A stretch of 37,773 bases of DNA from a virus. Its lineage: Duplodnaviria; Caudoviricetes. Numbering within the stretch: the stretch's first letter is position 1; every line of letters begins with the position of its first letter. Shown here in pieces: positions 2,340 to 35,256 of this stretch. The translations under genes and the position numbers were made by a program. The notes under the pieces are model-generated. The model did no database searches and was not told the origin of the DNA. It worked only from the letters and a program-made list of their open reading frames with translations. The stretch lies in the IMG/VR virus record IMGVR_UViG_3300035660_000038, positions 1 through 37,773 of that record, one strand, 5' to 3'.

Positions 2340-2449
2340 TTGATTAATCTCCTTTCTTATTCTTTACTTATTCTATTCCCCAAAAGATTATATTTTAGAC
2401 ATCATTATGAAATATATTTTATCTTTTGTTATAAATACTTATACGATAA

Positions 2450-2465
2450 TGTTCCACGTGGAACA
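2450..2465. promoter_or_regulatory. parS: parS centromere-like site (ParB/Spo0J binding)
   Basis: TGTTCCACGTGGAACA, a perfect palindrome (18 bp with flanks, 2449-2466) of the bacterial chromosomal parS family (consensus TGTTNCACGTGAAACA); intergenic. Confidence 0.85.
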
Positions 2466-6130: not shown

Positions 6131-6643
6131 ATGGATAAAAAATTATCCGAACATTTCAATTATTCTGAATTTAGGTGTCCCTGTGGCAAATGTCCTGATA
6201 TTGAGGTTGACCATAGTCTAATTGCAGGATTGGAAAAGTTAAGGATATGTAACCACCAACCGATTTATATTGCCAGTGGGTTAAGATGTAAGAAATATAA
6301 TGATAGTATAGGTGGTTATGACACCTCCGAACATTTGTATGGTCTTGCCGCAGATATATATAATGAAACCTTGAAACCTTTTTATCTTAAAATAAAAAAG
6401 ATAAACCATTCTGCCCTTATTGAATTAATAACATTGGCAGAAACTGCCTTGAAGGTAGGGATAAGGAGAATAGGTTTATATCCTTTCTCTATGTTCCTGC
6501 ATTTAGATATGGCTAAACCTTCACCTTCTGTCTCTTGGATTAGACAGAAAAATGGTTTTTATTATTACTATAAAACTTTAGAAGAAGCCATTGAAGTTAT
6601 AGAAACTATGATGCTTTCAGATTATCCTGAAAAATTCTCTTGA
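6131..6643 (+). CDS. Peptidase M15A-family endolysin (Zn peptidase)
   Basis: HFNYSEFRCPCG, SGLRC..YN..IGG...SEHLYGLAADI, FLHLD. Confidence 0.9.
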   Translation: MDKKLSEHFNYSEFRCPCGKCPDIEVDHSLIAGLEKLRICNHQPIYIASGLRCKKYNDSIGGYDTSEHLYGLAADIYNETLKPFYLKIKKINHSALIELITLAETALKVGIRRIGLYPFSMFLHLDMAKPSPSVSWIRQKNGFYYYYKTLEEAIEVIETMMLSDYPEKFS

Positions 6644-17050: not shown

Positions 17051-17851
17051 ATAAAACCATATAAATTAGATAATGATGAAATTGTAAAATTATATAATAA
17101 TGGTAAATCTACGGAAAATATATCCAATATAATGAATGTTCCTAATGCTCATATAATTATAAGAGTTTTAAAGAAAAAAGAAATAAAAAGAAGGACAGCA
17201 GAAGAAGCAGCAGATTTACGTTGCAATATTAATATTGATATTGATAAAATGATTAATTTATATGAAAGTGGTAAACCGAGTACAGAGATAGCAAAAATAT
17301 TCAATACAACTTCCAGTACAATTTTAATTAAATTAAAAAAGAATAATATAAGAATAAAAAGTCCTAATGAATATCATACAAAAAGAAAACCATATACAGA
17401 AGAACAGAGAAAGAATTTAGTTAATAGACTTATGGGACATTCTGTTTCAAAGGAAACAAGACTTAAACTTAGTGAAGCAAGAATGGGAGAAAAAAATCCA
17501 ATGTATGGGAAAATTGTATCAGAGGAAACAAGAAGAAAATTAAGTAAAGTGCATAAAGGAGAAAAAAGTTATTTATGGAAAGGTGGAGTAACTTTATTTA
17601 GACATGGTTTAAGAACATGTTTTGAATATCGTCAATGGAGAAGTGATATTTTCACAAAAGATAATTTTACTTGTCAAGAATGTGGACAAATCGGTAAAAG
17701 ATTACACGCACATCATATAGAAGCTTTCTCTTCTATTATACAAAAATATGAGATTACAACTATACAAGAAGCATTAGAATGCGAAGAGTTATGGAATATC
17801 AATAATGGGATAACATTATGTGAAAAATGCCATAAAGAATTAAAGAGGTGA
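17051..17851 (+). CDS. Free-standing HNH homing endonuclease with HTH repeats and NUMOD3 motifs; probable ATA start at 17051
   Basis: HSVSKETRLKLS and VSEETRRKLS (NUMOD3); CQECG..LHAHH...NGITLCEKCH (HNH); frame open back to 17051. Confidence 0.85.
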   Translation: MKPYKLDNDEIVKLYNNGKSTENISNIMNVPNAHIIIRVLKKKEIKRRTAEEAADLRCNINIDIDKMINLYESGKPSTEIAKIFNTTSSTILIKLKKNNIRIKSPNEYHTKRKPYTEEQRKNLVNRLMGHSVSKETRLKLSEARMGEKNPMYGKIVSEETRRKLSKVHKGEKSYLWKGGVTLFRHGLRTCFEYRQWRSDIFTKDNFTCQECGQIGKRLHAHHIEAFSSIIQKYEITTIQEALECEELWNINNGITLCEKCHKELKR

Positions 17852-18820: not shown

Positions 18821-19576
18821 TTGACTCAATATAAAGATAAAGATTATCTATATGATAATTATACAAATAAAAAATTAACTACATATCAAATTGCTAAATT
18901 ATATAATGTAACTGGTGAAGCAATTCAGTATTGGATGAAAAAATTTAATATCCCTTGTCGTTCAAAAAGTGAAGTAGTTCATTTAGCCAAAGGTAATCAT
19001 TGTATTTTATCACCAGAGGCAATTGAGTGGTTAAGTGGAGAATTACTTGGTGATGGAAGTTTAGGTTCGCAATCTAAATATTCAGCATTATTTCAATATT
19101 GTTCTAAATATCTTGAATATATAGAATATGTAAGAGATACACTTAAATCTTTTGGTATAAAACAATCTGGTAGAATACATAAACAATATCATAGAGATTA
19201 TGATAGTTATAGTTATTTTTATCGTTCTAAAGCTTATGTAGAATTATTACCTATCTATAAACAATGGTATCCAGAAGGTAAGAAGATAGTACCCAAAGAT
19301 ATTAAATTAACTTCATTGACCTTAAGACAATGGCACATTGGGGATGGATGTTTAAGACATAGAGAACATAGAAGACCATTTATAATATTATCTACTTATG
19401 GATTTATTGTTTCTGATGTAGAACAGTTAGTAAATAAGTTAAAAAATATTGGATTTATAATTAAAAGACAACCAAGTACAAATGTAATTCGAGTTACTCC
19501 ATATTCTACTAAAGAATTTCTTAATTATATTGGTAAATGCCCTGTGAATTGTTATCAGTATAAATGGGCATATTAG
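18821..19576 (+). CDS. Free-standing LAGLIDADG homing endonuclease with N-terminal HTH
   Basis: LSGELLGDGSL and LRQWHIGDGCL motifs, WYPEGKKIVP; TTG start. Confidence 0.9.
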   Translation: MTQYKDKDYLYDNYTNKKLTTYQIAKLYNVTGEAIQYWMKKFNIPCRSKSEVVHLAKGNHCILSPEAIEWLSGELLGDGSLGSQSKYSALFQYCSKYLEYIEYVRDTLKSFGIKQSGRIHKQYHRDYDSYSYFYRSKAYVELLPIYKQWYPEGKKIVPKDIKLTSLTLRQWHIGDGCLRHREHRRPFIILSTYGFIVSDVEQLVNKLKNIGFIIKRQPSTNVIRVTPYSTKEFLNYIGKCPVNCYQYKWAY

Positions 19577-23395: not shown

Positions 23396-23422
23396 ATGCA
23401 AATAAGTAAGGAGACGATATAT

Positions 23423-23776
23423 ATGAAGAAGATTATTCTAATAATTTTAGCAGTATTAATATTTAGTGGAATTGGTTATGCTCAAAAGATTGAATTAACC
23501 GAAAGGGAGTTGCTTATTCAGTTGAATGAGAAGGTAACTTATATTAATGAAAGTGTATCAAGAATTGAAAATAATCTTGTTACAACTACAAATAAAGCAA
23601 ATATTTTAGAGGGTAGAGTAACTGTAACCGAACAAAGTTTATTATCTATTTGTGATAGGATTAAAGGTTTAACGGAAAGTTGGAGCTGGATTGTAAGACT
23701 CTTTGCAACGGTTATTGTTGGTATATTCTTAAAGGGGATTTATGATTTTAGAAAAGCGAATCATAAAAATAATTAA
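23423..23776 (+). CDS. Exported coiled-coil protein with C-terminal TM anchor (lysis cluster)
   Basis: Signal-like MKKIILIILAVLIFSGIGYA, heptads, C-terminal hydrophobic helix. Confidence 0.7.
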   Translation: MKKIILIILAVLIFSGIGYAQKIELTERELLIQLNEKVTYINESVSRIENNLVTTTNKANILEGRVTVTEQSLLSICDRIKGLTESWSWIVRLFATVIVGIFLKGIYDFRKANHKNN

Positions 23777-24013: not shown

Positions 24014-24349
24014 ATGTTTGTTATTAGTTTAATATTAGGAGTAGCAGTTCTTTGGTTAGTATTAAAAAGTTTAAGGAGTTCGGTGAAGGATAAGAAGGAC
24101 GTAGTTCAAGATGGAATTGTATGCGATGGTTCTTATACCGTACATTACAAGAAATGGGGTTGGACGAATTGTCCTGAAAACCGACAAGAAGCAGGAACTT
24201 ACTGGACAAATCGTGTTGACGGTAGAACATTTTATTTGGGTATTACTACAAGCAATGCTATAGGAACTTATGGTAGTCCTTGTCCAAAAACTTATATTAA
24301 AGAAGTTACACAAAGACCACCTAAGGGAACATGTGCAGAAGTAAAATAA
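24014..24349 (+). CDS. Membrane-anchored protein with 4 Cys
   Basis: N-terminal TM; SD GAGGTGA. Confidence 0.75.
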   Translation: MFVISLILGVAVLWLVLKSLRSSVKDKKDVVQDGIVCDGSYTVHYKKWGWTNCPENRQEAGTYWTNRVDGRTFYLGITTSNAIGTYGSPCPKTYIKEVTQRPPKGTCAEVK

Positions 24350-24372: not shown

Positions 24373-24525
24373 ATGTCAACATTAAAATTAGTATATAACA
24401 TAGTATCTGTTATATCTATTGTATTCTTTATCTTTCATCCCAAAGATGTATTAGGTTTTTGGGTGGTAAAAATAAAGACGGTTATATTGGGAATTTGGAA
24501 ATTGATTAAAAGGGTAAAGAAATGA
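24373..24525 (+). CDS. 50-aa membrane peptide (MSTLKLVYNIV...)
   Basis: Read manually; ATGA overlap with next gene. Confidence 0.6.
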   Translation: MSTLKLVYNIVSVISIVFFIFHPKDVLGFWVVKIKTVILGIWKLIKRVKK

Positions 24526-25280
24526 AAACATTAAAATTAATTGTAATTGTTATCTTAATAGGATTACTTGCTTTTGGAGTCTGGAGAGGATATAAGTGGT
24601 ATGATAATTGGGTAGATAACAAATTTAGTGAGATAGAATTTTTGAAAAGAAATCAGGATATTACTATACAGAAAATTACTGATTTATCAACAGTCTTAAC
24701 TAAAGTAGTAAATGAGACTGCCAAAGTAACTACTGTTCCAAAGGTAGATGCAAATTATGAAAGTCTGAAGGAGCAGGTCATCGAACTTAAGAAAAATGAA
24801 AATGCAAATAAAGACGAGATTAAAGTATTAAAGGAAAAACTATCTGAACAAAGGCAAGCATTTTTGGCAAGTGATGATACTTTACTCATTAAAACTACTA
24901 ATGATGAAACTTTATTACTCTATCGAGATACAGAAGGAAAGTTACAACCTGCTTCAGATAATATAGAAAAAATAATTGAGCACAAGGATATATCTGAAGT
25001 TCCTGTAACTATAGAAGAAGCAAAATTTAAGAAAAATAACTGGAATTTGAAAGCAGGGGGATTTTATTCCTTTGATAAAACATACGGAATAATTATCTCC
25101 AAAGGAATAATTACTGTAAAAGATTACAGTCTTAACGTTGGTATTTTAATTAATGACTTTGAAGATTTCAAATTAATTGCTGGTGCAGATGTGGGTTATT
25201 CCATAAAAGATAATCTTGAGATTGGTATAGGTTATAATACAGAAAAAGAGATTTATTTGAAATTACAATATACATTCTGA
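24522..25280 (+). CDS. TM + coiled coil + C-terminal outer-membrane-type beta strands; spanin candidate
   Basis: N-terminal TM, long heptad region, ~6 amphipathic strands ending YLKLQYTF-COOH. Confidence 0.65.
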   Translation: MKTLKLIVIVILIGLLAFGVWRGYKWYDNWVDNKFSEIEFLKRNQDITIQKITDLSTVLTKVVNETAKVTTVPKVDANYESLKEQVIELKKNENANKDEIKVLKEKLSEQRQAFLASDDTLLIKTTNDETLLLYRDTEGKLQPASDNIEKIIEHKDISEVPVTIEEAKFKKNNWNLKAGGFYSFDKTYGIIISKGIITVKDYSLNVGILINDFEDFKLIAGADVGYSIKDNLEIGIGYNTEKEIYLKLQYTF

Positions 25281-25292
25281 AGGAGAACAATT

Positions 25293-25757
25293 GTGCACAA
25301 CAACAAAGAATATATGAAGGAGTATTTTAAAAAATACCCAGAGAAAAAGAAAGCAGCTCGTAAAAAATATTATGAAAACCATAAAGATCTTTGCAAGGAA
25401 AAAGTAAAAATATGGCATGATAATAATGTAGATAGTATAAATAAATACCATAGAGAATATAATAAGAATAGATACAATAAATTTAGAATTGCTGTATTTA
25501 ATCTTCTTTCCAACAATAATCCTCATTGTGTTAGATGTAATTGTGATGATATTAGACTTTTGGAAATCAACCATAAAAATGGTGGTGGAAAAAAAGAAAT
25601 CAGAAATTCTATCAAATTTTATAATGATATTCTTTCAGAAATAAGAAAAACTGATGATATTGAATTACTTTGTAAGGTTTGTAATAGTTGGCATTATTTA
25701 GAATTAAAATATGGAGAGTTACCTTATAAGATTTCTTATGATAAAATATTAATATAA
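25293..25757 (+). CDS. HNH-like endonuclease
   Basis: Basic helical N-terminus; CVRC...LEINHKNGGG...LLCKVCN; GTG start. Confidence 0.8.
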   Translation: MHNNKEYMKEYFKKYPEKKKAARKKYYENHKDLCKEKVKIWHDNNVDSINKYHREYNKNRYNKFRIAVFNLLSNNNPHCVRCNCDDIRLLEINHKNGGGKKEIRNSIKFYNDILSEIRKTDDIELLCKVCNSWHYLELKYGELPYKISYDKILI

Positions 25758-34193: not shown

Positions 34194-34209
34194 AAGCAAG
34201 GTGCAGAAT

Positions 34210-35256
34210 ATGAGGTTTCTGTTTATATCCAGACGAGGGGCAAGTTTATCCTTGGCAAAGAGAATTGCCGAAGAAGGAAATGAAGTAAAGTTCTTTGTCA
34301 ATAATAAATATTATGACAAAGTGGGCAATGGTTTAATTGACAAAGTATCTCATAAAGCAATAGAAAATTATGATTTAGTTGTCTTTGACGAATATGGTAT
34401 GGGAGAATATTCTGATAAAGTAGCAGTCCATAGACCTGTCTTTGGAAGTTCAGGTTTTGCCGATGTCTTCAATAATAATAAAGATTACAGAAATAAGATA
34501 TTAAATAAAATAGGATTGGAAATAACCACCGATAAATTAGGTATTAAACTAAACATCGGTGGTTTATTCAACGGCTTCGATTTTGTAAGACCTCTACATT
34601 TTTATATCAAACGAACTAAATTTATGGAGAACGACCTTTCAATCGAAACTGACTGTATGGGTTGTGTCCTGTGGTTTACTTCTGCAAATAAGATAACCAG
34701 AGAAACTATTCTAAAGATGAGAAACATCTTGGTCAAATCTGGCTATAAGGGTGCAGTCAATTTTGAACTTGCTATTCATAATGACAAATTCTATATTCAG
34801 AATATCATTTTAGGATTTTGCTACGATTCCACTTATGCTATGCTGGAAGGAACGAGGCAACCATTAGGTGAGTTCATCAATAAAGTAGCTAGTGGCAGTT
34901 TGAAAAGAATGAAGGCTTCTCCTGACTGGTTGGTTTCAGTTCGAGTTACCATCCCACCTTATCCTTTTCCTGTCAACAAATCCTATATTTCCAAAGTAGA
35001 AGGAATCAATTCCGACAATGATAAGCATATCTGGCTTCGTGATATTATGCTAAATGAGAAAGGAGAATATTATTCCACTGGAGCTGACGGTTTCCTTTTA
35101 ACAATCACAGCCAGAGGACTTTCGATTTACCAAGCCTTCAAAAGAGCATACCGCACTATCGGTAATTTAAGAATAGAAAATCTGCAATACAGGCACGATA
35201 TAGGAGAGAAAATTGAAAAGGATATTAATTTATTAAAGGAATGGGGATGGATTTAA
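34210..35256 (+). CDS. Degenerate PurD/GARS-like ATP-grasp-fold protein
   Basis: GARS N-domain (FLFIS..LA.RI..EGNEV..DLVVFD..G), FNG..F..P, C-terminal RAY..I..L....LQYR.DIG; lid domain and catalytic acidic residues apparently missing. Confidence 0.8.
   Translation: MRFLFISRRGASLSLAKRIAEEGNEVKFFVNNKYYDKVGNGLIDKVSHKAIENYDLVVFDEYGMGEYSDKVAVHRPVFGSSGFADVFNNNKDYRNKILNKIGLEITTDKLGIKLNIGGLFNGFDFVRPLHFYIKRTKFMENDLSIETDCMGCVLWFTSANKITRETILKMRNILVKSGYKGAVNFELAIHNDKFYIQNIILGFCYDSTYAMLEGTRQPLGEFINKVASGSLKRMKASPDWLVSVRVTIPPYPFPVNKSYISKVEGINSDNDKHIWLRDIMLNEKGEYYSTGADGFLLTITARGLSIYQAFKRAYRTIGNLRIENLQYRHDIGEKIEKDINLLKEWGWI

What the first reader, a model, noticed from the sequence alone, without database searches (positions are those of the whole stretch)
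24522..25280. Candidate new spanin class: inner-membrane anchor, coiled coil and outer-membrane beta-barrel
Seen: N-terminal TM (LIVIVILIGLLAFGVW), long coiled coil, then ~6 alternating strands (WNLKAGGFYS, YGIIISKG, YSLNVGILI, LIAGADVGYS, LEIGIGYN, IYLKLQYTF) ending in Y-x-F-COOH. It lies in a cluster of five membrane genes, and I see no lipobox or embedded o-spanin ORF. Known: a terminal Y-x-F strand is the BAM beta-signal; characterised spanins (lambda Rz/Rz1, T1 gp11) reach the outer membrane through a lipoprotein. Inference: a single protein bridging both membranes via a (possibly oligomeric) beta-barrel. This also implies a low-GC diderm host. The M15A endolysin is encoded 17 kb away.
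Basis: partly seen in the sequence, partly recalled or inferred. Interest (0 to 1): 0.75.

Follow-up and report, generated by a model that had tools for sequence, protein, structure and literature searches.

The report
Lipid-free spanin candidate, Atribacterota phages
The last gene of a conserved, probable cell-bursting gene cluster, in uncultured phages that likely infect the two-membraned phylum Atribacterota, encodes a protein with a membrane helix at one end and six outer-membrane-type strands at the other, and it likely breaks the outer membrane without the lipid tag that known spanins need; this role is untested.

Summary
The ORF is real (252 aa, 185 relatives, no Pfam family). It has an N-terminal hydrophobic helix that looks uncleaved. 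Six C-terminal strands alternate strictly and end in Phe in 120 of 120 aligned relatives, like the host TamB/BamA beta-signal. The 'long coiled coil' is only partly right: AlphaFold gives a compact beta-meander with a helical hairpin. New here: (1) the gene closes a conserved cassette, with an M15 or GH108 endolysin between it and a holin-like gene in 19 of 31 informative loci; (2) no credible lipobox ORF in the window or in two terminally repeated relatives; (3) the host is likely a low-GC Atribacterota clade (shared promoter motif, captured pilin, related phage in a MAG). Atribacterota have Omp85 in 84 of 86 genomes but LolA in 1 of 86. Best reading (0.6): a one-piece, lipoprotein-free spanin-like protein for hosts without lipoprotein delivery. 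How six strands sit in the membrane is unresolved. One complete phage with the same promoter and pilin lacks the gene. Kongari 2018 floated OMP anchors. This scan noted analogous designs on other DNA, but not this family.

The parts
24522..25280 (+). 252-aa candidate lipoprotein-free unimolecular spanin (last gene of the cassette)
   Evidence: starts in an ATGA overlap with the stop of the 50-aa gene
24528..24584 (+). N-terminal TM helix (res 3-21), likely uncleaved signal anchor
   Evidence: KD 2.52; lipobox in 1 of 120, [AVS]xA in the c-region in 14 of 120; aromatic run and invariant W30 follow
24609..25001 (+). Predicted periplasmic domain (res 30-160): beta-meander, helical hairpin/heptads 79-116, beta hairpins
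   Evidence: AF2 alone pLDDT 77.4, pTM 0.61; heptads; no clear fold match
25041..25277 (+). Six amphipathic strands (res 174-252) ending in a beta-signal
   Evidence: same -1/-3/-5 pattern as host TamB
24373..24525 (+). 50-aa protein: TM helix plus cationic amphipathic helix; conserved directly upstream
   Evidence: present in 42 of 45 loci with more than 250 nt upstream; mean net charge +4.5; no Pfam hit for the window copy or the L001 copy
24014..24349 (+). 111-aa TM-anchored Cys-containing protein filling the variable slot where relatives have the endolysin
   Evidence: 38% identical over 74 aa to a lipobox protein of phage G291
23742..24011 (+). 89-aa holin-like membrane protein (inferred from size, hydrophobicity and position)
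   Evidence: no Pfam or PHROG hit
23396..23776 (+). XhlA-like coiled-coil membrane protein (likely start 23423, signal-peptide-like N-terminus)
   Evidence: Pfam XhlA E 6.5e-8, 33.1 bits, under the 34.7 cut-off; phrog_1193
6131..6643 (+). M15 peptidase endolysin, displaced to just before the terminase genes
   Evidence: PF08291 E 2.4e-13; phrog_894 endolysin; its homologues sit in the cassette of relatives; same displaced position in the phage of G001
2374..2401 (-). Promoter-like motif TGTCTAAAA-N12-GGGAATA shared with the likely host clade (host clue, not part of the cassette)

Best explanation
This protein is likely a one-piece, lipoprotein-free spanin: its N-terminal helix likely stays in the inner membrane, and its six C-terminal strands are likely inserted into the outer membrane by the host's BamA, so that one chain would link both membranes. 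After the holin-like protein and the endolysin have removed the wall, the linked chains would cluster and rearrange to merge or tear the two membranes, as proposed for Rz/Rz1 and T1 gp11. The design would suit hosts that appear to lack Lol and so could not place a lipoprotein anchor in the outer membrane. Shown: the sequence features, their conservation, cassette position, absence of a lipobox ORF, and Omp85 in the likely host phylum. Inferred: host, topology, BamA use, any role in lysis, and fusion. Open: whether the strands form an oligomeric barrel (for example 2 x 6), a six-stranded monomer, or stay docked on BamA as TamB does on TamA.
For: Beta-signal: F at -1 in 120/120, Y/W/F at -3 in 113/120, L at -5 in 112/120. 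The host TamB ends the same way (F 30/30, L at -5 29/30), and three host BamA copies end in Y-[LF]-S-I-G-H-T-F. Lipophilic face 0.90 versus 0.26; the polar face is Gly/Ser-rich (0.40) and holds 11 of the 14 columns at 97% or more conservation, as in membrane barrels. Distant relatives P0128, P0129 and L006 have their insertion in the loop between strands 5 and 6, the predicted outer side. Fold search hits include designed and natural TM barrels at Z about 6. Cassette: endolysin between the holin-like gene and this gene in 19 of 31 loci (M15 16, GH108 3); direct overlap with the M15 gene in L025 and L026. No credible lipobox ORF in the window, G003 or G292, while the scan did recover a real lipoprotein in G291. 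Host: three contigs of a related phage in Atribacterota MAG G001; promoter motif in 43/86 Atribacterota, 0/201 genomes of the phylum of G002, 0 in reversed controls; the same motif precedes a pilin in G003 and G292, which carry the gene; the G292 pilin is 61-63% identical over its length to G050/G058 pilins. Omp85 84/86, LolA 1/86 over cut-off. Diderm Terrabacteria, Atribacteria listed among them, are reported to lack Lol (PMC11784454 and bioRxiv 2021.05.31.446380, passages).
Against: No functional test exists. G291, a complete 45.7-kb phage with the same promoter motif, pilin and M15 endolysin, has no match to this family and no beta-signal ORF by my pattern, so the gene is not universal among apparent phages of this host group. 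In 12 of 31 loci, the window included, no endolysin lies in the cassette. No known monomeric OMP has fewer than 8 strands (PMC13067283, passage). The best fold match is a designed six-stranded barrel, BBn6 (Z 10.2, rmsd 2.6, 77 aligned; recalled to be soluble), and I could not see which face the model buries. The stalk is modelled as compact, unlike the two coiled coils of Rz. The holin label rests on no family hit. No CRISPR spacer or integrated prophage ties the phage to its host. One distant relative (36%) lies on a 3-kb contig of a Dehalococcoidales MAG (monoderm, recalled). The Lol searches are blunt: LolA missed Bacteroides among the controls, and lolCE gave sub-cut-off hits in 66/86. 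The window is probably 6-8 kb short of a whole genome.
Confidence: 0.6

Rival explanations
1. Non-lytic envelope modifier. The strands dock on BamA like the TamB C-terminus and jam or redirect it, or form a small OMP, to exclude superinfecting phages or remodel the surface.
For: TamB has the same topology: inner-membrane signal anchor plus six C-terminal strands forming a hybrid barrel with TamA/BamA (PMC12800296 abstract and section 10; PMC13382580 passages). The host TamB beta-signal matches. Relatives carry a host-type pilin, so this family does touch the cell surface. G291 lacks the gene.
Against: The gene sits after the endolysin in a late structural operon, not with the pilin behind its own promoter. 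There is no homology to TamB beyond chance: HHalign score 17.8, parity-preserving shuffles up to 18.7. Loops are short, with no receptor-like surface.
Confidence: 0.14
2. The 50-aa cationic amphipathic neighbour is the outer-membrane disruptor (disruptin-like), and the 252-aa protein is its accessory or one half of a two-part system.
For: Neighbour present in 42 of 45 loci, 47-59 aa, mean charge +4.5, amphipathic C-terminal helix. phiKT gp28 is a 56-aa cationic amphipathic disruptin (bioRxiv 515445, abstract). The genes overlap at ATGA.
Against: The neighbour has a TM helix, which the gp28 abstract does not describe. It is missing in L025 and L026, where the large gene abuts the endolysin directly. 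It does not explain the invariant beta-signal.
Confidence: 0.12
3. Inner-membrane-anchored (or exported) protein whose C-terminus is a soluble six-stranded barrel with the hydrophobic face inside, acting as a periplasmic lysis regulator such as an antiholin.
For: The best structural match is the six-stranded BBn6. Atribacter is reported to have unusual signal peptides, so my cleavage heuristic may fail (PMC7736352, passages).
Against: Invariant Gly/Ser/Asn/Lys/Glu on the polar face, 30 lipophilic residues on one face, Tyr/Trp/Phe at strand ends, and an invariant terminal Phe like the host's OMPs are not expected for a soluble barrel (established knowledge of OMPs).
Confidence: 0.09
4. Virion or ejected protein, or a phage of a monoderm host in which the beta-signal is coincidental.
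For: The cassette lies between the tail-fibre gene and a virion structural gene. One distant relative is in a Dehalococcoidales MAG.
Against: Host markers point to Atribacterota, which have Omp85. The Dehalococcoidales hit is a single 3-kb contig that may be mis-binned. There is no structural PHROG hit.
Confidence: 0.05

Closest known systems
Unimolecular spanin, T1 gp11 type (Kongari et al. 2018, PMC6139136; passages and section 15 read)
   Same: One chain proposed to link both membranes; beta-rich periplasmic part; lysis-cassette gene
   Different: [quoted passage not shown] No sequence link was found.
Two-component spanins, lambda Rz/Rz1 (same paper)
   Same: N-terminal TM helix (type II) followed by heptad-bearing periplasmic helices, placed after the endolysin
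   Different: No o-spanin lipoprotein, embedded or separate; no conserved Cys; stalk modelled as a compact alpha/beta domain. The paper notes only as a possibility that 'an OMP could act as an o-spanin'.
TamB (PF04357) with TamA/BamA (PMC12800296 abstract and section 10; PMC13382580 passages)
   Same: N-terminal signal anchor, six C-terminal strands and a beta-signal that engages an Omp85 barrel: shows this topology is feasible
   Different: About 1400 aa lipid-transport bridge of the host versus a 252-aa phage protein; no detectable homology; four TamB strands lie inside the TamA lumen.
DUF6808 (PF20647) and DUF6549 (PF20186) phage proteins
   Same: ESM Atlas feature look-alikes (scores 0.92 and 0.91; family on 24% and 28% of cluster members)
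   Different: No Pfam hit to either; uncharacterised, with 0 papers in the library. A lead only.
Disruptin, phiKT gp28 (bioRxiv 515445, abstract only)
   Same: Spanin-free route through the outer membrane; resembles the 50-aa neighbour in size and charge
   Different: A peptide without a beta anchor; it does not describe the 252-aa protein.

Membership tests
Unimolecular spanin (T1 gp11 type) | N-terminal outer-membrane lipoprotein signal | tested here: not met
   No Cys in the window protein's N-terminus; lipobox pattern in 1 of 120 relatives
Unimolecular spanin (T1 gp11 type) | C-terminal TM helix | tested here: not met
   Only one TM, at 3-21; the C-terminus is six strands
Unimolecular spanin (T1 gp11 type) | Complements an Rz/Rz1 lysis defect | not testable with these tools
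   Bench test
i-spanin of a two-component system | Type II membrane protein with periplasmic heptad helices, after the endolysin | tested here: met
   the coiled coil is shorter than in Rz and modelled as a hairpin
i-spanin of a two-component system | Linked o-spanin lipoprotein gene | tested here: not met
   Six-frame relaxed scan of the window (1 shadow candidate), G003 (8 rows) and G292 (3 rows): all antisense-like, none credible; the window may be incomplete
BAM-inserted outer-membrane beta protein | C-terminal beta-signal and alternating lipophilic strands with aromatic ends | tested here: met
   host comparison
BAM-inserted outer-membrane beta protein | Closed barrel of 8 or more strands with the hydrophobic face out | tested here: inconclusive
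   Six strands per chain; model coordinates not visible; oligomer state unknown
BAM-inserted outer-membrane beta protein | Host encodes BamA | tested here: met
   Omp85 in 84 of 86 Atribacterota genomes; host assignment itself inferred
TamB / DUF490 | Homology to the TamB C-terminal domain | tested here: not met
   No PF04357 hit; HHalign probability 1.7% and 3.6%, within shuffled controls
Trimeric autotransporter anchor (features recalled) | Cleaved signal peptide, helix through the pore, four strands per chain | tested here: not met
   Six strands preceded by a variable low-confidence linker, 160-171; no YadA-type Pfam hit; cleavage motif in 14 of 120
DUF6808 / DUF6549 | Pfam match over cut-off | tested here: not met
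   Atlas resemblance only

The most novel reading that the evidence does not exclude
A third architectural class of spanin: one chain held by an inner-membrane helix and a BamA-inserted six-strand module, used by phages of Lol-less diderms. The module is either an oligomeric barrel or the smallest natural membrane barrel (six strands, Gly/Ser-lined). It would answer how phages cross the outer membrane in diderm Terrabacteria that cannot deliver lipoproteins there.
Probability: 0.55. Interest if true: 0.85.

Novelty: new variant of a known kind. Interest (0 to 1): 0.7.

Why it matters
All spanins in the 2018 survey reach the outer membrane through a lipoprotein, and 91 of 677 phages had none; the Thermus and cyanobacterial phages in that list are Terrabacteria. 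Diderm Terrabacteria are reported to lack the Lol pathway, so their phages need another way out. This family gives a single 252-aa gene, with a clear topological prediction and one invariant terminal residue to delete, that makes the question testable in a lambda spanin-null lysogen or in Veillonella. It also bears on the lower size limit of membrane beta-barrels and on whether BamA can insert a substrate still tethered to the inner membrane. It ties a large phage family to Atribacterota, a common subsurface phylum.

Tried and rejected
Complex prediction of three copies of residues 168-252: no verdict, score 0.00 in both runs, controls not folded; only the trimer was tried, and the result is no evidence either way. 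Foldseek against PDB and BFVD: no match at E 0.001 or better for the whole model or the stalk. VIA on the stalk: best Z 5.4, a common arrangement. tblastn of the protein against 50,697 GenBank phage records: no match. The terminase gave only distant hits (best 29%) and no host. Profile search of 1.84 billion representatives: 17 hits, all the same family, no bridge to a named one. Cluster look-up of 10 proteins gave no organism names. blastn of the window against 86 Atribacterota genomes found no perfect spacer-length match, with only 3 candidates scored per genome. The family was found in 1 of those 86 genomes. Descent from TamB was rejected. An embedded o-spanin was rejected. The lolCE search was inconclusive. 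My first promoter pattern had the wrong spacing (8 of 86) and was corrected. Literature: of 10 searches, five were on spanins and one on the DUFs. From listings and abstract starts, none showed a beta-strand-anchored spanin. The library lacks most subscription papers, and no supplements were read. The LambdaSo paper (part 1 of 4) describes ordinary Rz/Rz1 plus Lcc6. PMC10629564 (passages) added nothing specific.

Full report
Observation. The window is a 37.8-kb tailed-phage contig, 25-38% GC by 2-kb block, with terminase, major capsid, tail-fibre and M15 endolysin genes. ORF 24522-25280 encodes 252 aa. It has no Pfam family (one marginal hit, E 0.009) and one marginal PHROG of unknown function. 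It has 185 relatives among 1104 candidates; the best 120 were listed, 52-99% identical. I aligned the window protein with 119 of them (A1). A profile search of 1.84 billion representatives found 17 hits, all apparently this family. No GenBank phage matches.

Anatomy. Residues 3-21 are strongly hydrophobic and are followed by a conserved aromatic run and invariant W30. A lipobox pattern occurs in 1 of 120 and an [AVS]xA cleavage motif in 14 of 120. Two host BamA precursors seen do show V-x-A motifs. I therefore infer an uncleaved anchor. This is a heuristic, and Atribacter signal peptides are reported to be unusual (PMC7736352, passages). Residues 79-115 have clean heptads and 38-62 a weaker 3/4 pattern. 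AlphaFold2 models 49-73 as strands and 79-116 as a helical hairpin within a compact domain, both in the whole chain and alone (pLDDT 77.4, pTM 0.61, three of five models above 74). No fold match was found.

The C-terminal module. Six strands at 176-251 have block pLDDT 80-89. 30 of 32 even positions are lipophilic against 6 of 28 odd ones. Across the family the fractions are 0.90 and 0.26. The polar face is 40% Gly/Ser and holds 11 of the 14 columns conserved at 97% or more. The beta moment was matched by 77 of 10000 shuffles, with strand limits set from the model. The end is F in 120/120, Y/W/F at -3 in 113/120 and L at -5 in 112/120. The best structural match is the designed six-stranded barrel BBn6 (Z 10.2, rmsd 2.6, 77 aligned); TM barrels follow at Z about 6, which is within the common range. 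So the monomer model probably closes on itself, but the same contacts would arise between subunits of an oligomer. Known monomeric OMPs start at 8 strands (PMC13067283, passage).

Gene context. I compared 52 loci (window plus L001-L051); they are related and some are near duplicates. The typical order is tail fibre, coiled-coil protein with a C-terminal TM, holin-like protein, variable slot, 50-aa TM/cationic protein, this gene. Of 31 loci showing the holin-like gene, 19 have an endolysin in the slot (M15 16, GH108 3; families confirmed on one example each). The other 12 do not, including the window. The window's M15 gene is homologous to the slot M15 genes but lies before the terminase, as in the related phage in G001. 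The 50-aa gene is present in 42 of 45 loci with upstream sequence; in L025 and L026 the large gene overlaps the M15 stop directly. 'Holin-like' has no family support. XhlA support is a just-sub-threshold Pfam hit for the window copy only.

No conventional spanin. A relaxed six-frame lipobox scan gave only antisense-like candidates in the window, G003 (46.0 kb) and G292 (43.4 kb). Both relatives carry the gene and have direct terminal repeats, though CheckV rates them 62% and 59% complete. The scan recovered a convincing lipoprotein in G291, so it can detect one. The window itself probably lacks 6-8 kb.

Host. A 52%-identical relative lies in an Atribacterota MAG, and a 36% relative on a 3-kb contig of a Dehalococcoidales MAG. 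The Atribacterota MAG (G001) holds three contigs of a related phage at 65-70% nucleotide identity, without visible host flanks. Window 2374-2401 matches a motif repeated in Atribacterota genomes. The exact pattern occurs in 43 of 86 of them, all among G001 and G038-G090 (43 of those 54), in 0 of 201 genomes of the rival phylum, and never reversed. I found the motif post hoc and tested no other low-GC phylum. It does, however, occur in only 30 stretches of IMG/VR, among them G003 and G292. There it precedes a type IV pilin, as it does in host locus L104 next to a sigma-factor gene. The G292 pilin is 63% and 61% identical over its length to pilins of G050 and G058. M15 homologues of the endolysin occur in 35 of 86 genomes, in the same group. 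Sampled loci of this group are 33-36% GC; it is probably class JS1 (label recalled). No spacer or integrated copy was found.

Host envelope. Omp85 is present in 84 of 86 genomes. LolA passes its cut-off in 1 of 86, but the search missed Bacteroides among the controls. lolCE passes in 0 of 86 with sub-cut-off hits in 66. Published surveys state that diderm Terrabacteria lack Lol and outer-membrane lipoproteins, and list Atribacteria among them (PMC11784454 and bioRxiv 2021.05.31.446380, passages). The C-termini of 30 host TamB copies (F 30/30, L at -5 29/30) and three BamA copies match the phage pattern. In the one imaged isolate, of the other clade, the two outer layers are 7 nm apart and their identity is uncertain; a short stalk could span that.

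Mechanism. Most likely the protein is exported with its helix retained, BamA inserts the strands, and the chain links both membranes until the wall is removed, then drives their merger or rupture (0.6). TamB shows that an inner-membrane-anchored protein can engage an Omp85 barrel with six C-terminal strands (PMC12800296, abstract and section 10; PMC13382580, passages), but no homology was detectable. The main result against is G291: complete, same promoter, pilin and M15 gene, yet without this gene or a beta-signal ORF by my pattern. Rivals are a non-lytic BamA-docking modifier (0.14), a disruptin-like role for the 50-aa neighbour (0.12), a soluble barrel (0.09), and a virion protein or monoderm host (0.05).

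Novelty. It fails the defining tests for gp11-type and Rz/Rz1 spanins but would work like them. Kongari et al. wrote that 'an OMP could act as an o-spanin' (section 15). Five spanin searches and one DUF search showed no description of such a protein in listings; no supplements were read. This scan holds no note on this family by sequence or place, but several unchecked notes on analogous barrel-anchored designs in other phages. I did not test them, except the 2018 citation. I class it as a new variant of a known kind, interest 0.7.

Noticed in passing
window 2450-2465: Perfect palindrome TGTTCCACGTGGAACA matching a parS-type site (family assignment recalled). Two copies occur in host locus L068 (G086); none in G003, G291, G292 or the G001 phage contigs. 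The phage may use the host ParB.
   Followed up: partly
window 2374-2401 (-); L104 1501-1528: Clade-specific two-block promoter-like motif, found in front of pilin genes and next to an alternative sigma-factor gene in the host; looks SigB/SigF-like (recalled). In the window it precedes a short ORF starting near 2339 (-).
   Followed up: partly
L146 5320-5799 (G292); L144 2747-3310 (G291); L112 (G003); L123: Phage-encoded type IV pilin with its host promoter, 61-63% identical to host pilins; possibly superinfection exclusion by pilus replacement.
   Followed up: partly
window 24014-24349; L144 1873-2208: The same small Cys-containing domain is anchored by a TM helix in the window and by a lipobox in G291, which suggests an inner-membrane periplasmic role. 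Other loci put an unrelated TM-anchored 135-177 aa protein in this slot (13 loci).
   Followed up: partly
L004 10775-11314 and L001 10686-10880: Directly after the target gene, relatives have either an exported thioredoxin (5 loci) or a 50-80 aa TM protein (16 loci). Both end in a C-x-x-G-x-C-x-x-P motif, followed by a metallophosphoesterase (19 loci).
   Followed up: no
window 17132-17851, 18821-19576, 25293-25757: HNH/NUMOD3, LAGLIDADG and a further endonuclease-like ORF are inserted among structural genes; similar inserts interrupt the cassette in relatives.
   Followed up: no
window 34201-35256: Last gene of the late block resembles the C domain of phosphoribosylglycinamide synthetase (PF02843, E 5e-7, under cut-off); conserved in the G001 phage.
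   Followed up: no
G291 (L143 15083-16885): Complete phage with holin-like gene, M15 endolysin and phosphoesterase but no recognisable outer-membrane lysis gene.
   Followed up: partly
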